64,000 nucleotides of DNA from positions 1 through 64,000 of the IMG/VR virus record IMGVR_UViG_3300029787_004704; one strand, given 5' to 3'. Made by a program: the position numbers and the translations under genes. Positions within the stretch are counted from its first letter, which is position 1, and every line of letters begins with the position of its first letter. Shown piece after piece: positions 1-47,660 of the stretch. This DNA is from a virus. The notes beneath the pieces are model-generated. The model saw only the letters and a list, made by a program, of their open reading frames with translations, was not told the origin of the DNA and ran no database searches.

Positions 1-198
1 TCAGCCATAGCAGTGACTTGGGCAGTGCCTAGACCTCAATGGGTATCTAGACTGTACACTCGAGTTGCTCGCACAATAGGTTCATCACGCACTTGGTCAT
101 AACTGGGCCGTCCACACTCACGCACCAGACACTGTACACAACCAAAAAAAATCGCAAAAGCGGAACGGCGTCGCTCTGCTCGACGTGATGGCAGTTCT

Positions 199-810
199 CT
201 AGCCTCTTTGGTAACACCACACTTCGTCTGACTTGTTGCGTTCTTGACGAGCATAGTTCAATTGTCGGAGTGTTTGCACACTGTGATCACAGATCTGTCT
301 GCGTTTGGCAGTCTTCATTTCGATATTGATCACAGGTTTGTGGGTTCGGATTGTGTTCTGAGCACCCATCAGCACACGATCTTCATAGCCATCCACATCA
401 ATCTTGATGAAGTCTACATCTGTGAGTGCGTAAGAGTCCAGTGTACACAACTGTATGACACCTTCTTTATCTGTGCGTGACAGGTTCTGTGGGCGATCGG
501 GCAAGTAGTTTGTGCTGTGTGCATGATCAGATAGGCCAACTTCGTGCAACACAGCATTGGAATCAGCAGGAATGTTCTGGTGCCAACAACGTGTGAATAT
601 GGGATTGGGTTCAAAACACACCACTTGATCAAAGTCTTTCTGCAGGAATCGTGTCCACATGCCCACACAAGCACCCACATCCACACAGGTTCGCCAATCA
701 GTCACATACTTGAGGGCACGATCTCTCAGACCCTTTTGTCCGTCACCCTGACCCAGTATGGTCTTTGAGTGATCTCGGTAACCAGGCATCCAAAAGTCTG
801 TGTCTGTCAT
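199..810 (-). CDS. FkbM-family SAM-dependent methyltransferase
   Basis: VDVGACVG, FEPNP and DFIKIDVDGYE motifs; start placed at 810 (ATGA overlap with upstream stop). Confidence 0.85.
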   Translation of the reverse strand: MTDTDFWMPGYRDHSKTILGQGDGQKGLRDRALKYVTDWRTCVDVGACVGMWTRFLQKDFDQVVCFEPNPIFTRCWHQNIPADSNAVLHEVGLSDHAHSTNYLPDRPQNLSRTDKEGVIQLCTLDSYALTDVDFIKIDVDGYEDRVLMGAQNTIRTHKPVINIEMKTAKRRQICDHSVQTLRQLNYARQERNKSDEVWCYQRG

Positions 811-1393: not shown

Positions 1394-2242
1394 ATGGTAA
1401 ACAGAGTGATTGAGAACAAATTGGAGTACAAACCTGATGGTGACTGTCATCTGTATCTCTCTATGAACAGGAGAAACCTTGTGATCACTGTGGGTGACTC
1501 ATGGTCATATGGTGACTGTTTGGGTGATCTAGGTTCACATGCATACAGACGCTCAGAAGAATGGTCACTGCACAGCAGTCTGTATCGCGATGCTAGACTG
1601 ACTCACTGTTGGGGTAGACATATGGCTGATGCACTGCGAGCTGATTGGTTCGAAGCCTCCACCAGAGGATCCTGCAATGACACCATACTGCATGAATCTG
1701 AATGGTGGTGTTGTCCAGATGCTGATGAATTCTTGGCACAGTATGATCATGTGTATCTGTGTGTGCTGTTGACCGAACCAGGGCGAGCAGACAGGTATCA
1801 CACACTCACACCAGAACCGGAAGAAATATTACGCACAGAAGAAGCAGACTGCTATCAAAGACTGCGACAGATGATCAAGCGTAGACCCAACACACACTTT
1901 TGGTTTGGTTGCAACATGACTCGATCATACAATCCCATGCACAACTCCAGTTGGAATGGCACACCATGGATGGATGTGATTGCTGACCAGGCCATTGCTG
2001 AACAGGGTTGGTTGAGTGGAGTGGCCACTCACAAATTGAATCGACTGTACATGAAACCCACAGTGAGCAAGTCGCTACAACAGTCTTGGAAACAACATTT
2101 TGTTGATCACACCAACAAGGTAGCACCTGTATGGAAGCATCTACATCAACATGAATTGCACTATGCTGGACACACCTGCCATCCTAGACCTCAAGCACAC
2201 AAAATGTATGCTGACTATGTTCTTGCTAATGCTGGTTGGTGA
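1394..2242 (+). CDS. SGNH/GDSL-like protein
   Basis: VGDSWSYG block I, GSCN block II, C-terminal CHPRPQAH; TAAGTA 5 nt before ATG 1394. Confidence 0.65.
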   Translation: MVNRVIENKLEYKPDGDCHLYLSMNRRNLVITVGDSWSYGDCLGDLGSHAYRRSEEWSLHSSLYRDARLTHCWGRHMADALRADWFEASTRGSCNDTILHESEWWCCPDADEFLAQYDHVYLCVLLTEPGRADRYHTLTPEPEEILRTEEADCYQRLRQMIKRRPNTHFWFGCNMTRSYNPMHNSSWNGTPWMDVIADQAIAEQGWLSGVATHKLNRLYMKPTVSKSLQQSWKQHFVDHTNKVAPVWKHLHQHELHYAGHTCHPRPQAHKMYADYVLANAGW

Positions 2243-2318
2243 TGGTGCCCTCACACGGACTTGAACCGCGAACCTATTGATTACAAATCAATTGCTCTAC
2301 CAATTGAGCTATGAGGGC
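2243..2318 (-). tRNA. trnT: tRNA-Thr(UGU) with encoded CCA
   Basis: GCCCTCA/TGAGGGC acceptor, D arm GCTC..GAGC, anticodon stem ATTGA/TCAAT with loop TTTGTAA, T loop GGTTCAAGTCC, ACCA end; 76 nt. Confidence 0.95.
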
Positions 2319-2813
2319 ATTGCCTTGTGTGTTGAGATGGTTCACATCGCCTGGATGCTGTTGCCATACATGATGATAGTTGTGAGGAATTCTTTCAGTG
2401 TCCTCAGGATCATGGAATGTGCAATGAACAGCACTGTCAATCTGCATCATCTGATCCACTGCTGAGTGCCACACCCACTGCTGATACTCGGCATCATAAT
2501 ACTTTGAGAGATATTGATTCACCAACTGCATCTCTTGATTGTGTTGAGCATGATATTCAACATCTGCCAATATGAAGTCATTGTGTGTTCTGGTATCACT
2601 GTCAGCATGTACAGGATGATGTGGAGTATGCACTCGCCACGGTGAAGTGTGTGCAATCAACACACAGTCATGATCTGCATGATCCTCTAACTGTTTCAGT
2701 ATCTTGTATTGACTCACCCCACGCTGACTGCGATTGGTCACGCTGACACCTAACTGCGATGGCCAACCATCAGTGTCAGCTGAAAAGGAATCTCCTACAA
2801 TCAGCAGACGCAT
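2274..2813 (-). CDS. SGNH/GDSL-like protein; last 45 nt overlap tRNA-Thr
   Basis: LIVGDSF, RGVSQ, DVNHLNTQGNALIAQLV; start taken at MRLLIVGDS. Confidence 0.7.
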   Translation of the reverse strand: MRLLIVGDSFSADTDGWPSQLGVSVTNRSQRGVSQYKILKQLEDHADHDCVLIAHTSPWRVHTPHHPVHADSDTRTHNDFILADVEYHAQHNQEMQLVNQYLSKYYDAEYQQWVWHSAVDQMMQIDSAVHCTFHDPEDTERIPHNYHHVWQQHPGDVNHLNTQGNALIAQLVEQLICNQ

Positions 2814-2817
2814 GTTT

Positions 2818-2943
2818 CTAGCCATTGACGTGACTGATAACAAACACAGCGATCATAAACACAACAAATATGACACAATCTAATCTGTATTTTTCATTCA
2901 GTTCGTATGGTATGAGAGGTTTCTCGTTGTAGTCCATACTCAT
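2818..2943 (-). CDS. small putative membrane protein (41 aa, not in ORF track)
   Basis: MSMDYNEKPL...CVIFVVFMIAVFVISHVNG; fills the gap between co-oriented genes. Confidence 0.45.
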   Translation of the reverse strand: MSMDYNEKPLIPYELNEKYRLDCVIFVVFMIAVFVISHVNG

Positions 2944-2945
2944 AG

Positions 2946-3485
2946 TTATTGATTTAGATATGCCAACATGGTCTCAGCATTGGTCACTTCAAACGGATCA
3001 GGATCTGAATCTTCAGTCAGTCCAGGCTCTACCCACATCTTTTCTATCACACCGTCTGTGATGATGGCTGAATATCTCCATGAACGTGCACCAAAGCCTC
3101 TGTTTTTGAATGTGGTGGCCATGCCCATGCCTTCGGTGAACTCACCATTACCGTCTGGAATAACTTTGCAGTGTTTGATGTCTTGATCTTTGCACCATGC
3201 ATTCATAACAAATGAATCATTTACTGACACACAATACACATCATCTAGTCCTGCTGACTGCAAAGCATCGTAGTGTGCTTCATATCCTGGCAGTTGCATG
3301 GATGAACATGTTGGCGTGAACGCTCCTGGTAAAGAAAATATACCAATTTTTTTGCCTTTGAATAAATCATCAGTGGTTATGTCTTTGAACTCTCCACCAA
3401 TAAAACCACAACCACCTTCTGTGATTGCTTGATCGTCACCAACTCTGCATTTGAAAGTGACTGCAGGTATTTGTTTACCCTCCAT
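2946..3485 (-). CDS. peroxiredoxin (Prx5/redoxin family)
   Basis: SLPGAFTPTCS, SVNDSFVMNAW, RSWRYS; AAGGAGA RBS before ATG 3485. Confidence 0.92.
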   Translation of the reverse strand: MEGKQIPAVTFKCRVGDDQAITEGGCGFIGGEFKDITTDDLFKGKKIGIFSLPGAFTPTCSSMQLPGYEAHYDALQSAGLDDVYCVSVNDSFVMNAWCKDQDIKHCKVIPDGNGEFTEGMGMATTFKNRGFGARSWRYSAIITDGVIEKMWVEPGLTEDSDPDPFEVTNAETMLAYLNQ

Positions 3486-44177: not shown

Positions 44178-44810
44178 CTATATATAGAAGTTTCTGTTGG
44201 ACGTTAATGATTCTTGATTGTTCACTTTGACTGCTCTTGGAGTCACCACTTGTATGTTACAGTATAGATCTTTCACAAACATGTCAGCGGCAGTCAGACC
44301 TTCTTCATATGCTCCACGTATTAACCGTTCAGCAGTTTTTGGTTTGATTACGTATCCATAGGTGCCTTGTAATTGTTGTTGTCCTTTGCGATAATGTTCT
44401 AGTTTTTGTATGCTAGGTTCTTGTCCTAGATCAGGATCAGGCTCGACAAATCGGTGTTTGTCCAAATGTAGTAGTTCATCAAACGGTGTTTTGTATGAGT
44501 CTGATACCACAATAGAATCGTGTTCAAGTATGACCACTGTTTCATCTAGTTCAACACATTTTTTCCACATTTCCAAATGTGAAATCATGCATCCTCTGAC
44601 ACCACCTTTATTCCATTTTATTTTGTATAACTTTGGCCCGGGAAAATATGGTTGTAAATTTTCTCGTTTGATATATTCATCTGCACGTGAAGGTGTGTAC
44701 CCTTCAAACATCTCAGCGTCTAGGCCATGTGCTTTAGCACTGACCATTGCGTCAATAGCTGGTTGATGTGTGCTTTCAACTTCTCTTAAAAATAATACAA
44801 ACGCTTTCAT
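44178..44810 (-). CDS. glycosyltransferase family 25
   Basis: GCMISH..MW, ILEHD, GTYGYVI.P..A. Confidence 0.82.
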   Translation of the reverse strand: MKAFVLFLREVESTHQPAIDAMVSAKAHGLDAEMFEGYTPSRADEYIKRENLQPYFPGPKLYKIKWNKGGVRGCMISHLEMWKKCVELDETVVILEHDSIVVSDSYKTPFDELLHLDKHRFVEPDPDLGQEPSIQKLEHYRKGQQQLQGTYGYVIKPKTAERLIRGAYEEGLTAADMFVKDLYCNIQVVTPRAVKVNNQESLTSNRNFYI

Positions 44811-45220
44811 TTTTTGATAACGGACCCATGTACTCTTACTCTTATGTGGCCGTTGTAGTAATCATCTGATTCAAGTACACCTCTAGCAAACTGTTCTTTT
44901 GCTTCAAGATAATTGCATTCGCCTTTAGATTTGCATAGATGAATTATTTCTCTTTTGAATTTTTCTTTGCCTAGTTTGTTTACATCTTCGATCAGCAAGT
45001 CACTCGAACCATAATAATCTTGCCAGTCACTTTCTACTGTGTGTCTGCGTTTATTTTTTCTGCCTTTGAGAGGTGGTCTTGACCTTTTGAATTTTGCCAA
45101 TTTCTTCCCCACGTACATTCTACCTGTTGTGGTGTTGGTTATGAGATATACAAATCCCACTACACCGTCTGGTAATGTTTCTACTAGTTCTCCTTGATAT
45201 GTCCAATTGACTTTTGTCAT
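44807..45220 (-). CDS. GIY-YIG endonuclease
   Basis: GFVYLITN..TGRMYVGKK, YYGSS, FKREI. Confidence 0.85.
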   Translation of the reverse strand: MTKVNWTYQGELVETLPDGVVGFVYLITNTTTGRMYVGKKLAKFKRSRPPLKGRKNKRRHTVESDWQDYYGSSDLLIEDVNKLGKEKFKREIIHLCKSKGECNYLEAKEQFARGVLESDDYYNGHIRVRVHGSVIKK

Positions 45221-45242
45221 GCTTTATTTTATTATATACTAT

Positions 45243-45776
45243 ATGCATGATGCCACACAACCAGTAATCGATAGTATTCTCCAGTGGATGGAAAAGTTTG
45301 TAGAAGTACCACATCCATCATTTGGTAACATGCCTCCATGTCCTTATGCACGGCAATACCGAGTGCAAGACAAGATTAAAATTGTTGAAGCACCGGTCAA
45401 TACCAAAGGCAATCCGCCCGATATTTGGGAGACTGCTGAACAAGTGTTTGAAACATGGAACGATGACTTTGAAGCCATCATTGTGGCACGTGAAAACGTG
45501 GCCCGTCGATATAATAGTGCAGAAATGTTATCGGCTCGAATAAAAGAATTAAATGACAAATACAAATCAAACGATTTAGTGGCCCTGGAAGATCATCCAA
45601 TGGATCCCGAAGTGATTGACGGCGTACAAATGAACCATGGCGGTTTAATTCTTGTTGTAATACAACGTTTGAGCAAGATAAACAAACACTCAGAGATGCT
45701 CAAAGGTGGAGAATACTACGATAAATGGTCGCAAGAAAATTTGGATGATGTTGTAAATTGGCGGTTTAAGAAATAG
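45243..45776 (+). CDS. DUF1415-like protein
   Basis: W...FVE.P.......PCPYA, LEDHP, .QRL. Confidence 0.55.
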   Translation: MHDATQPVIDSILQWMEKFVEVPHPSFGNMPPCPYARQYRVQDKIKIVEAPVNTKGNPPDIWETAEQVFETWNDDFEAIIVARENVARRYNSAEMLSARIKELNDKYKSNDLVALEDHPMDPEVIDGVQMNHGGLILVVIQRLSKINKHSEMLKGGEYYDKWSQENLDDVVNWRFKK

Positions 45777-46043: not shown

Positions 46044-46721
46044 TTAGAATGTTATCTTAAAGTCAATATCTTTTTGTATTGCCGAATTGTATGCATCTTT
46101 ATCATCACTCCACCCTGATCCAGTCCACCATTCAAATCCAGGAATGGATGCTTTCCATTTGCATGACTTGTCGTAACTGGCTCCTAGATAGAACCATTCA
46201 TAACCTAGTTCATGTGCATGATGTATTTCGTGCCACAGACTGTATTTGCCCAGTTGCAGTTTGAAGTCAGCATAGTTCCACGCCATTTGCCAGTTGTCTA
46301 GACTGTTGATATACGTGGTCCATATGGAGAATCCTATAAGATCATTTTTCAATCTGTACAACCACACAGTGTCTGCATGACCAATATCCTCCAGTGGGTT
46401 TGGTTCCAACATGGTGTAACCGTGATGATCAAGATATGCTTCATATATCGGCATCAATTGAGGCATCATTAATTTTGCTTCTAGACCATAAATTTTTTCA
46501 GCAATTATGTCAGGATCAGTTTTTGGTTTCTTTGCTTTTTTTATAAATCTGTCTATGTTGATTCTAACAGCACGAACTTGTTGCCATGCATCTTCTAATT
46601 GTATAAAACCTTGTGCCAATGCTTCGTCTGATTCTTGGGGGTGTACGTCTGCCCACACTTTCATGAACTGTATGTCTTGTTGATCTAGTTTGCCAAATAA
46701 ATGTTCATACCAAATTTTCAT
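46044..46721 (-). CDS. aminoacyl-tRNA-protein transferase (ATE/Bpt C-terminal GNAT-like)
   Basis: LIGFS, W.Y....LGKYSL..EI..A...G..W.YLG......WK ATE_C pattern; start at MKIWYEH. Confidence 0.65.
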   Translation of the reverse strand: MKIWYEHLFGKLDQQDIQFMKVWADVHPQESDEALAQGFIQLEDAWQQVRAVRINIDRFIKKAKKPKTDPDIIAEKIYGLEAKLMMPQLMPIYEAYLDHHGYTMLEPNPLEDIGHADTVWLYRLKNDLIGFSIWTTYINSLDNWQMAWNYADFKLQLGKYSLWHEIHHAHELGYEWFYLGASYDKSCKWKASIPGFEWWTGSGWSDDKDAYNSAIQKDIDFKITF

Positions 46722-46738
46722 GTGTAAGTATCCTGTAT

Positions 46739-47086
46739 ATGGATATCTATCACATTTTTGCAGATCATCACCCTGAAGTGGATTCTTATGAATTCGCTGA
46801 CAAGATGAGATCATTTTTAGATGGCATGGTGAGTTTAGGAAAAATGCAAAATTACAGATTAACCAGAGCCAAACTAGGCTTCCGTTCTATGGACCTTCCA
46901 GAGTTTCATGTCATGATGGAATTTGTAAACATGCAACAACTGGATGATGCTATGACTTCTGTGTTACGCAACGAAAAAAGTATTGATGAAAAACATGTCA
47001 ACTTCAATCAATTGGTTGATAGTGAAACCATACAACATTTTCTATATAGAGACTTTCCGGATCAGATCGACGACAGCAAATCTTAG
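46739..47086 (+). CDS. DUF6614-like protein
   Basis: MDIYHI, YRLTR.KLGF...LPEFH.MMEF....QLD.A, LYRDFPD. Confidence 0.65.
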   Translation: MDIYHIFADHHPEVDSYEFADKMRSFLDGMVSLGKMQNYRLTRAKLGFRSMDLPEFHVMMEFVNMQQLDDAMTSVLRNEKSIDEKHVNFNQLVDSETIQHFLYRDFPDQIDDSKS

Positions 47087-47099
47087 GTCGGTATAATAT

Positions 47100-47434
47100 A
47101 GTTGTGCAAGGCAATCAAGGCACTTCAAAAAAATCTTAGGCAACATAACGTCTCCGAACACAGCGAACTACTCTGTAACAACAGCGGCGAATCGCTTGAC
47201 GTCCAATATTCATACGGTATCTACGTTTACCACCGCGTAGTATAAAAAAAGCGAGACCATAGGTTGGTATAATCCTCCGTTGCAACAATGTCTCTGGATG
47301 CTTGGCTGTGCGACTCACATCAAGAAAAACATTCACCTGGCAACAGGTGGATACTGACTTAACAATCTACATCAAGCAACGGCATTATAAAATGCTCGAG
47401 TGCAAACGAAGAGCGATTGACGTAGTCAATCTTT
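47100..47434 (+). ncRNA. candidate structured non-coding RNA (unassigned)
   Basis: TATAAT at 47092-47097; several hairpins including a GCAA tetraloop, long-range complementarities and a terminal hairpin. Confidence 0.5.
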
Positions 47435-47660
47435 ACTTGTTGTCCACTTTGTGAGCATCATAGTCATGCATGAAATCATTTAATGTTATGTCCGCACGTC
47501 TTAGATCAGTGTGTTTTTCAAAAAAGTCAAACAGCAAATTAGCACACTCTTTGGGAGAATGTGTCATCAGCATCTTTTGTAGGACGTAGTTGGTTTTGTT
47601 TCTGCGTTGTTCAGTGTTCAACACCGCATGTTTGGGAACAGGAGCAAAGTTGTTCTTCAT
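47433..47660 (-). CDS. hypothetical protein
   Basis: 75-aa ORF converging on the structured element. Confidence 0.5.
   Translation of the reverse strand: MKNNFAPVPKHAVLNTEQRRNKTNYVLQKMLMTHSPKECANLLFDFFEKHTDLRRADITLNDFMHDYDAHKVDNK

What the first reader, a model, noticed from the sequence alone, without database searches (positions are those of the whole stretch)
47092..47434. ~330-nt highly structured intergenic element, candidate novel ncRNA or origin RNA
Seen: the largest gene-free gap in a dense genome, between convergent genes, with TATAAT at 47092 and a final hairpin GATTGAC-GTA-GTCAATC-TTT (47415-47434). Local stems: ACGTC/GACGT (47148/47198), AGCGG-CGAA-TCGCT (47183-47196), CTACG/CGTAG (47221-47240), ATTCACCTG-GCAA-CAGGTGGAT (47331-47352, GNRA loop), GCATT/AATGC (47382-47395). 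Long-range pairs: CACAGC/GCTGTG (47159/47305), GAGAC/GTCTC (47253/47290), and CCGTTGC/GCAACGG (47277/47376), which crosses them as a pseudoknot. I do not recognise it as tRNA, tmRNA or RNase P. Inference: a large folded RNA (ribozyme, scaffold or replication primer).
Basis: partly seen in the sequence, partly recalled or inferred. Interest (0 to 1): 0.8.

Follow-up and report, generated by a model that had tools for sequence, protein, structure and literature searches.

The report
Twin-box structured RNA of giant phages
The gene-free gap holds a real gene for a roughly 330-base, intricately folded non-coding RNA, the shortest member of a large uncatalogued family in uncultured aquatic giant phages. 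The RNA carries the same short variable "word" twice, as if it grips two copies of a partner that is still unknown.

Summary
Window 47103-47434 (+ strand) is an independent RNA gene with a sigma-70-type promoter (47070-47097) and a terminal hairpin (47415-47431). nhmmer found homologues in 139 viral-contig loci (92 distinct sequences, 333-448 nt); the window's copy is the shortest form.

On 80 sequences, 86 proposed pairs are 94% canonical, against 32-41% when the partners are slid. 59 pairs show double-sided changes, and the long forms have a covarying pseudoknot. G-U outnumbers A-C 736:161, which fixes the + strand. There is no coding signal.

The window and 35 other family loci were scanned against Rfam 15 without a hit. 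blastn and tblastn found no relative in 50,697 cultured-phage records, and I found no paper.

Two 6-10-nt boxes (47317-47324 and 47369-47376) are identical within every RNA, although nine variants exist and at least 13 concerted switches occurred. No complement lies in the RNA or its flanks. I infer pairing in trans with two copies of an unknown partner.

The RNA stays beside an ATE1-fold aminoacyl-tRNA transferase gene and a GIY-YIG nuclease gene.

This scan found the family before on other DNA ("twin-box RNA"). Its lead to Rfam Polynucleobacter-1 was not met here, but a Limnohabitans RNA links the two. Function is unknown.

The parts
47070..47097 (+). Sigma-70-type promoter: -35 ACGACA (47070-47075), 16-nt spacer, -10 TATAAT (47092-47097)
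   Evidence: Promoter scan, 10 of 12 consensus matches. At the same place, 41 of 79 homologues have TTGAC-N16-19-TAnnnW and 64 of 79 have a -10-like box.
47103..47434 (+). The RNA gene, about 330 nt. The 5' end is inferred from the promoter and the 3' end from the terminal hairpin.
   Evidence: nhmmer E = 5e-61 to the family profile. Alignment A4 and pair counts. G-U 736 against A-C 161 fixes the strand.
47108..47142 (+). A-rich single-stranded leader with three AGGCA motifs (47108, 47117, 47137)
   Evidence: All 80 homologues have 2-4 such motifs in the leader.
47148..47202 (+). 5' domain: P1 (47148-47152 / 47198-47202), P2 (47162-47166 / 47192-47196), P3 (47173-47176 / 47181-47184), with conserved internal loops GAACTAC and GGCGAATC
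   Evidence: Helices 1-2: 11 pairs with double-sided changes. Window coordinates.
47221..47240 (+). Lineage-specific small hairpin CTACG/CGTAG. It stands where long forms carry P4-P6 and the pseudoknot loop.
   Evidence: L004/L005 have a different hairpin at this place.
47253..47294 (+). Central hairpin: GAGAC/GTCTC (position of family P7) enclosing AGG/CCT (47261-47263 / 47275-47277; position of P8)
   Evidence: Alignment A4. P7 pair at columns 268/311 is C-G in 62, U-A in 17 and A-U in 1 sequence. Coordinates.
47317..47324 (+). Box 1 (ACATCAAG), preceded by GACTC
47331..47352 (+). P10 hairpin with a GCAA (GNRA) loop, between the two boxes
   Evidence: Helix 11: 11 pairs, 8 with double-sided changes, 98.5% paired.
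47369..47376 (+). Box 2 (ACATCAAG), preceded by ATCT. Identical to box 1 and 52 nt downstream of it.
   Evidence: The first six bases of box 1 and box 2 are identical in all 92 distinct sequences, with nine variants. At least 13 concerted switches on the tree.
47394..47414 (+). P11 (GCTC/GAGC) enclosing tandem G-A/A-G, two pairs and a GCAA loop (47398-47409)
   Evidence: Helices 12-13: all 5 outer pairs have double-sided changes.
47415..47434 (+). P12 terminal hairpin (47415-47421 / 47425-47431) plus TTT: terminator-like
   Evidence: Helix 14 has 5 pairs with double-sided changes. 45 of 80 homologues have at least 3 U in the 7 nt at the hairpin's end.
46044..46814 (-). Linked gene: 256-aa aminoacyl-tRNA-transferase-like protein (weak ATE_C/GNAT by Pfam; ATE1-like predicted fold)
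   Evidence: Pfam. AlphaFold model with pLDDT 81; best PDB folds are ATE1, MprF and FemX. The gene lies within 5 kb of the RNA in 28 of 34 loci with enough flank, in three different arrangements.
44807..45220 (-). SegE-like GIY-YIG endonuclease gene, the family's most frequent neighbour. It is 1.9 kb away here.
   Evidence: Pfam SegE_GIY-YIG, E = 6e-38. Found in 79 of 112 loci, median 24 nt upstream and divergent.

Best explanation
Window 47103-47434 (+ strand) is a stand-alone gene for a structured non-coding RNA. A host-type (sigma-70-like) promoter drives it and a hairpin ends it. It is the most reduced member (333 nt) of a family of 333-448-nt pseudoknotted RNAs carried by uncultured aquatic giant T4-related phages.

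Shown: the gene, its strand, its conserved fold, its wide distribution and its absence from Rfam.

Inferred mechanism: the RNA acts in trans as a folded scaffold. It exposes two identical single-stranded 6-10-nt boxes, one on each side of a GNRA hairpin, and each follows a similar GACT-containing stretch. The boxes pair with two copies of one outside nucleic-acid partner, or with two identical sites. I put about 50% on this step.

Which partner and which effector protein is not shown. My leading guess, at about 10-15%, is that the RNA works with the linked ATE1-fold aminoacyl-tRNA transferase and that the boxes dock tRNA anticodon loops.
For: - Homologues: 139 loci and 92 distinct full-length sequences by nhmmer, E = 1e-25 to 1e-126.
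- Structure on 80 sequences: 86 pairs are 94.0% canonical, against 32-41% with partners slid. 59 pairs have double-sided changes. The covariation score is 0.412 against 0.168 for shuffles (0 of 500 reach it) and 0.04-0.08 for slid partners.
- Pseudoknot in the long forms: 9 pairs, 7 compensatory.
- Strand: G-U 736 against A-C 161.
- Promoter conserved.
- Not coding: no period-3 signal (p = 0.29), gap lengths not in threes, and the 66-aa ORF is lost in relatives.
- Boxes: identical hexamers in 92 of 92 sequences across nine variants. Identity runs 6-10 nt and spacing is 47-60 nt. At least 13 concerted switches. No complementary column inside the RNA.
- Linked gene: ATE1-like predicted fold. It stays next to the RNA through three rearrangements.
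Against: - No transcript evidence. The only RNA runs holding the stretch are oligo-dT libraries with low-depth contigs on the flanks.
- No partner for the boxes was found. Their reverse complement is not enriched in flanking DNA: 76 per Mb against 94 per Mb for other lineages' boxes.
- The phage tRNAs seen (Thr UGU, Ala UGC, Ser UGA, Leu UAG) do not match the box triplets.
- Concerted evolution by local gene conversion cannot be excluded as the cause of box identity.
- The transferase gene is missing near the RNA in 6 of 34 well-flanked loci, and beside the likely bacterial relative.
- The window's copy lacks the pseudoknot domain.
Confidence: 0.8

Rival explanations
1. tRNA-docking scaffold for the linked transferase. 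The boxes act like T-box specifier sequences: positions 3-5 read CAC, UAC, GUG, AUG or AUC and are followed by an invariant A. Two tRNAs of one kind dock by their anticodons and present their charged ends to the small ATE1-fold enzyme.
For: - The box pattern is a variable triplet plus an invariant A.
- The triplet switched at least 8 times, always in both boxes. Switching to another ready-made tRNA needs no co-evolving third site.
- The neighbouring gene has an ATE1/MprF/FemX-type fold and keeps its place beside the RNA.
- Neither the RNA nor the enzyme was found in cultured phages by BLAST.
Against: - Positions 1-2 and 7-10 of the boxes also stay identical, which a 3-nt codon does not require.
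- Box position 2 is mostly C, which would face the purine at tRNA position 37.
- Phage-encoded tRNAs found in the fragments do not match the triplets.
- There is no T-box or tRNA-like Rfam signal.
- 6 of 34 loci lack the enzyme gene nearby.
Confidence: 0.12
2. RNA partner or guide of small DNA enzymes. The boxes pair with two identical DNA sites and bring them to the adjacent GIY-YIG nuclease in phages, or to a tyrosine recombinase in bacteria.
For: - A GIY-YIG gene lies a median 24 nt upstream, divergent, in 79 of 112 loci.
- The Limnohabitans RNA that carries twin boxes sits directly before a tyrosine integrase gene.
- Earlier notes of this scan report the same kind of neighbours.
Against: - Two unrelated enzyme families make an odd pair of partners for one RNA.
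- In the window the GIY-YIG gene is 1.9 kb away, with three or four genes in between.
- Homing endonucleases and integrases are known to settle beside or inside conserved RNA genes such as tRNA and tmRNA genes (established knowledge). That explains the adjacency without any partnership.
- No box-matching DNA site is enriched nearby.
Confidence: 0.1
3. Replication-origin element or primer RNA. An early transcript forms an R-loop that primes DNA synthesis, as at T4 oriF near uvsY-25-26.
For: - It has an early-type promoter.
- It lies at the junction of recombination genes (SbcCD/gp46-47 type) and the baseplate-hub module.
- It contains direct repeats.
Against: - Selection acts on RNA helices, GNRA/UNCG loop swaps and a pseudoknot, with a strong G-U over A-C bias. 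A priming R-loop needs none of this.
- There are only two repeats, and they are short and change between lineages, unlike iterons.
- I did not run GC-skew, so the position of the origin is untested.
Confidence: 0.05
4. Cis-acting leader or riboswitch of the transferase gene.
For: In 45 loci the transferase gene starts about 2-30 nt after the matched stretch, which runs past the terminal hairpin, on the same strand.
Against: - The RNA ends in a terminator-like hairpin.
- A separate TAAATA/TAAGTA box lies before the gene.
- In the window and the marine long forms the gene is upstream or on the other strand.
Confidence: 0.03

Closest known systems
Polynucleobacter-1 RNA motif (Rfam RF01718; Weinberg et al. 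2010, PMC2864571), an orphan motif of Burkholderiales and fresh water or estuary
   Same: A Limnohabitans genome has an RF01718 match of 53 bits. It is followed by GAACUC-AUCGAA and, 59 nt on, GAAUCU-AUCGAA (L446 1273-1268 and 1214-1209, minus strand). That is the same twin-box context and spacing as in the phage family. MAFFT also lines up the blocks GCGUU, ACCGCCC and GAGCG.CAGCGAA. Earlier notes of this scan call the motif the first third of the full-length RNA.
   Different: RF01718 gives no hit, even at E <= 10, in the window's record, and no hit in any of the 35 other family loci that I scanned. A covariance model of the phage core scores the Limnohabitans RNA only 7.4 bits, E = 0.19. 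The catalogued motif has 141 positions, no known function and no twin boxes.
ROOL (RF03087) and GOLLD (RF01998), large ornate RNAs of phages and prophages (PMC12286853)
   Same: They are large, highly structured, phage-borne non-coding RNAs of unknown function with their own transcription signals.
   Different: There is no sequence or structure match in Rfam scans. This RNA is shorter (333-448 nt). Twin covarying boxes are not a described feature of those RNAs, as far as I know.
T-box leader RNAs
   Same: Works-like resemblance only. An exposed variable triplet followed by a conserved purine, flanked by structured modules, could read a tRNA anticodon.
   Different: There is no Rfam T-box match. 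This RNA is not a leader of an aminoacyl-tRNA synthetase gene, it has two copies of the box, and box identity extends beyond three bases.
Small RNAs with duplicated seed motifs, such as RsaE with its C-rich motifs (from my own knowledge)
   Same: Two identical single-stranded recognition motifs in one RNA.
   Different: Those are about 100-nt RNAs with invariant seeds aimed at Shine-Dalgarno sequences. Here the boxes change between lineages and sit in a 330-450-nt pseudoknotted scaffold.

Membership tests
Twin-box phage RNA family (uncatalogued; defined here by alignments A4 and A6 and their profiles) | Sequence homology to the family profile | tested here: met
   nhmmer E = 5.4e-61 over profile positions 3-402 (locus L001 = window). 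The covariance model of the core gives a weak hit at 47234-47378 (16.8 bits, E = 0.036).
Twin-box phage RNA family (uncatalogued; defined here by alignments A4 and A6 and their profiles) | Conserved helices P1, P2, P10, P11 and P12 formed | tested here: met
   In the window, 5/5, 5/5, 9/11, 4/5 and 7/8 pairs form.
Twin-box phage RNA family (uncatalogued; defined here by alignments A4 and A6 and their profiles) | Two identical boxes flanking P10, after ..CTC and ..TCT | tested here: met
   ACATCAAG at 47317 and 47369.
Twin-box phage RNA family (uncatalogued; defined here by alignments A4 and A6 and their profiles) | P4-P6 domain and loop-to-downstream pseudoknot | tested here: not met
   The window has gaps at the P6 and pseudoknot columns and no pairing at the P4/P5 columns. 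The short forms replace the domain with a small hairpin.
Polynucleobacter-1 (RF01718) | Rfam covariance-model score of at least 37 bits | tested here: not met
   No hit at gathering score or at E <= 10 in the window or its whole record.
Polynucleobacter-1 (RF01718) | Homology to a full-length RNA whose 5' third is RF01718 | tested here: inconclusive
   The Limnohabitans RNA shares the twin-box context and several blocks. The phage-core model scores it at only E = 0.19.
tRNA, tmRNA, RNase P, group I intron, ROOL, GOLLD, T-box (Rfam 15) | Match to the family covariance model | tested here: not met
   No match at E <= 10 on 46900-47600. ARAGORN finds only the tRNA-Thr at 2243-2318. The element is not inside a gene, so it is not an intron.
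Replication origin with primer RNA (T4 oriF type) | Mapped initiation of DNA synthesis, and an R-loop with a DNA-unwinding element | not testable with these tools
   No replication data exist for an uncultured phage. GC-skew was not run.
Aminoacyl-tRNA-dependent transferases (ATE1, Bpt, FemX, MprF) for the linked 256-aa protein | GNAT-type transferase fold matching ATE1 | tested here: met
   Foldseek best hit is human ATE1 8tzv_A, E = 9e-9, followed by yeast ATE1, MprF and FemX. Pfam ATE_C matches 7 of 21 members, best E = 5e-8. Catalysis is not tested.

The most novel reading that the evidence does not exclude
The RNA is a template-like docking platform. Its two identical boxes each present a codon-like triplet followed by an invariant A, and each docks the anticodon of the same tRNA species. 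In this way the RNA chooses which aminoacyl-tRNA the small linked ATE1-fold transferase uses. This would be RNA-specified, ribosome-free amino-acid transfer in a phage.
Probability: 0.08. Interest if true: 0.95.

Novelty: new variant of a known kind. Interest (0 to 1): 0.7.

Why it matters
Large, conserved, pseudoknotted RNAs are rare, and they have usually turned out to be ribozymes or cores of ribonucleoprotein machines. This one is common in uncultured aquatic giant phages. It is absent from Rfam as a full-length RNA and has no known function.

Its most telling feature is a pair of fast-changing boxes kept identical through at least 13 switches. That points to sequence-programmed recognition of two copies of a partner.

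The window adds three things:
- A natural minimal version of 333 nt, which shows that the P4-P6/pseudoknot domain is dispensable.
- A persistent link to an aminoacyl-tRNA-transferase-like gene with an ATE1-like fold.
- A likely bridge to the orphan Polynucleobacter-1 motif, catalogued in 2010 without a function.

Each of these makes the open question of what the RNA binds directly testable.

Tried and rejected
- Rfam at gathering score on the window and 35 family loci, and at E <= 5-10 on nine stretches: no family, including RF01718.
- blastn and tblastn of the RNA and the transferase against 50,697 cultured-phage records: no match.
They say nothing about distribution.
- RNA runs: two oligo-dT marine libraries hold low-depth contigs on the flanks and the last 40 nt only, and two metatranscriptomes hold nothing. 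This is no evidence for or against expression.
- Partner search for the boxes: no complementary column in the RNA, no exact complement in the loci, and no enrichment in flanks.
- No tRNA genes in 1.25 Mb of flanking loci. tRNAs elsewhere on two large contigs do not match the box triplets.
- Protein-coding reading rejected.
- UCGCG/UGCGA (helix 7) is almost invariant, so it is neither supported nor refuted.
- Supplements of PMC10690425 (8,495 candidate RNAs of 29-151 nt from IMG/VR) are not held. Pieces of this RNA may be among them; this is unchecked.
- Literature searches found no description.

Full report
**What is at the coordinates.** The interval lies between the stop of a DUF6614 gene (46739-47086, +) and the stop of a 75-aa gene (47433-47660, -). 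TATAAT at 47092 and the hairpin at 47415-47431 are present, and the promoter scan pairs the TATAAT with ACGACA at 47070. Folded alone, the + strand is only modestly more stable than shuffles (z = -1.94) and the - strand is not (z = +0.49). The single sequence therefore proves little. Rfam gives only a tRNA elsewhere in the window, and nothing at E <= 10 in 46900-47600.

**The host.** The baseplate-hub protein next door is 28-30% identical to those of giant myoviruses (Agrobacterium phage Atu_ph07, GAP32, PA5oct). The 108-kb record is rated 26% complete. Related records of 196 kb and 108 kb are rated 55% and 29% complete. This is an uncultured marine giant T4-related phage of roughly 360-415 kb. 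Its DNA occurs in marine metagenomes of about ten studies.

**Homologues.**
- Loci found through the DUF6614 neighbour showed that the element is conserved. In L004 and L005, inserted genes separate the DUF6614 gene from the element, so the element stays with the genes on its other side.
- Two conserved words then retrieved more viral contigs.
- nhmmer confirmed 139 loci with 92 distinct full-length sequences in 24 clusters at 80% identity, 333-448 nt long.
- The window's form is the shortest. It lacks about 90 nt of the long forms.
- None of the 36 family loci scanned (the window among them) reaches any Rfam family's gathering score, and none of the nine stretches also searched at E <= 5-10 matches a family there.
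- No cultured-phage record matches by blastn.

**Structure.**
- I placed 14 helices on an 80-sequence alignment (A4) from one long reference. I then counted pairs.
- Of the cells, 94.0% are canonical, against 80.4% in column shuffles and 32-41% with partners slid by 1-3 columns.
- 59 of 86 pairs have changes on both sides. The covariation score is 0.412, against 0.168 for shuffles (0 of 500 reach it) and 0.04-0.08 for slid partners.
- The alignment was made by sequence (MAFFT), not fitted to the structure. The structure was, however, derived from one of the sequences, which favours it somewhat in the slid control.
- Strongly supported helices: P1, P2, P3, P4, P6, P10, P11 and P12.
- Also supported: a mini-hairpin in which GNRA and UNCG loops replace each other (by eye), and a long-range pseudoknot between the loop of P6 and a strand 85 nt downstream (9 pairs, 7 compensatory).
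- G-U cells outnumber A-C cells 736 to 161, so the + strand is the folded one.
- Variation has no 3-nt period (p = 0.29) and gaps are not in threes.
- The window's 66-aa minus-strand ORF is absent in L004, L005 and L029.

**Transcription signals.** Upstream of the conserved 5' end, 41 of 79 sequences have TTGAC, 16-19 nt, then TAnnnW, and 64 of 79 have a -10-like box. This is a host-type, hence probably early, promoter. The last helix is followed by at least 3 U in 45 of 80 sequences. Expression itself is untested: the RNA runs available were uninformative.

- Conserved: P1 (47148/47198), P10 (47331/47344), P12 (47415/47425), and GAGAC/GTCTC (47253/47290), which stands at the place of P7.
- CTACG/CGTAG is lineage-specific, but another hairpin replaces it in L004/L005.
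- TCGCT (47192) pairs with AGCGA at 47162, not with AGCGG at 47183.
- GCATT/AATGC clashes with P11.
- CACAGC/GCTGTG and the pseudoknot CCGTTGC/GCAACGG are not kept in relatives.

**Twin boxes.**
- Two stretches, one on each side of P10, have the same first six bases in all 92 sequences, although nine hexamers occur: ACCACA 45, GCCACA 16, ACGTGA 9, AGCACA 6, ACATCA 6, AGTACA 5, ACATGA 3, AAATCA 1, ACTACA 1.
- Identity runs 6-10 nt. Spacing is 47-60 nt.
- Each box follows a similar module (GACTGC, six bases, then the box) and precedes a hairpin.
- On a tree built without the box columns, the box changed at least 13 times, always in both copies.
- No column of the RNA is complementary to the variable box positions. 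No exact complement lies in the loci. The complement is not enriched in flanks (76 against 94 per Mb).
- I infer that both boxes read one outside partner.
- Gene conversion is a weaker alternative, because the sequences just before the boxes differ consistently between the two modules.
- Positions 3-5 read CAC, UAC, GUG, AUG or AUC and are followed by an invariant A. This recalls T-box specifiers. It does not explain why the flanking positions also match.

**Neighbours (112 distinct loci).**
- A SegE-like GIY-YIG gene lies a median 24 nt upstream and divergent in 79 loci.
- A 250-aa protein gene occurs within 5 kb in 58 loci, and in 28 of 34 loci with enough flank. It is directly downstream on the same strand in 45 loci, directly upstream and divergent in 5, and further upstream in 8, including the window (46044-46814, -).
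- The protein's Pfam signal is weak: ATE_C in 7 of 21 members.
- An AlphaFold model (pLDDT 81) matches ATE1 best (E = 9e-9), then MprF and FemX. All are aminoacyl-tRNA-dependent transferases.
- The protein has 323 clusters in metagenomes, none of them named, and no tblastn match in cultured phages.
- The RNA and this gene thus stay together through rearrangements. This suggests, but does not show, a shared function.
- Phage tRNAs found on large contigs (Thr, Ala, Ser, Leu) do not match the box triplets.

**Earlier notes of this scan.**
- Look-ups showed that the same family had been found many times on other genomes and called the "twin-box RNA". The notes carried a lead that its first third is the Rfam motif Polynucleobacter-1.
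- I tested this. RF01718 does not hit the window or any other family locus I scanned (and earlier ones).
- A Limnohabitans genome has an RF01718 match of 53 bits. It is followed by GAACUC-AUCGAA and, 59 nt later, GAAUCU-AUCGAA. That is the same context and spacing as the phage boxes, and several shared blocks align.
- A covariance model of the phage core finds distant phage members at 70-133 bits and the window at 16.8 bits. It finds the Limnohabitans RNA only at 7.4 bits, E = 0.19.
- One family is therefore plausible, not proven.
- In Limnohabitans the RNA precedes a tyrosine integrase gene.
- Integrases and homing endonucleases commonly settle at conserved RNA genes (established for tRNA and tmRNA genes). 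I therefore read the DNA-enzyme neighbours as a consequence of the RNA gene's conservation rather than as partners.

**Verdict.** This is a real, independently transcribed, conserved, pseudoknotted non-coding RNA gene on the + strand. Its job is unknown. The best-supported mechanistic step is trans recognition by the twin boxes. The full-length RNA is not catalogued. Its only catalogued relative is an orphan 141-position motif, which the window's copy does not match.

Noticed in passing
window 46044-46814 (-): A 256-aa protein with an ATE1/MprF/FemX-like predicted fold. It has 323 clusters in metagenomes, all unnamed, and none in cultured phages. It looks like a phage aminoacyl-tRNA-dependent transferase of unknown substrate.
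   Followed up: partly
window 46739-47086 (+) and 45207-45776 (+): A DUF6614 gene sits head-to-head with the transferase gene, and a weak DUF6875-like gene lies nearby.
   Followed up: no
L054, L431, L422 and others, about 10-30 nt before the transferase start codon: A TTAAATA / TTAAGTA box lies between the RNA's terminal hairpin and the transferase gene. It may be a phage middle or late promoter (T4 late consensus TATAAATA).
   Followed up: no
Long family members, variable region after box 2 (A4 columns about 410-490): One to three copies of GCGTAA(A/G), and a hairpin ACGCA...TGCGT that could alternatively pair with a second TGCGT. This may be a switch or a protein site.
   Followed up: no
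5' leader of L060, L422, L365, L419 and others: An optional extra hairpin (GAAGGG-CAACNGYAT-CCTTC) with compensatory changes between lineages, followed by another AGGCA motif.
   Followed up: no
L446 (Limnohabitans sp. Rim28), 54-734 (-), 2032-2466 (+), 2579-2971 (+): The bacterial RNA with an RF01718 5' third lies beside a small tyrosine integrase, a DUF6641 gene and a RelE toxin gene. The setting looks like a genomic island or prophage end.
   Followed up: partly
window 2243-2318 (-): tRNA-Thr (UGU). Related phage records carry the same Thr-Ala tRNA pair plus Ser or Leu.
   Followed up: partly
window 47394-47566: A low-depth contig from an oligo-dT marine RNA library covers the RNA's 3' end and the 75-aa gene. 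Its 18-nt unmatched end resembles the L004-type variant. It probably comes from a related strain and possibly from carried-over DNA.
   Followed up: no
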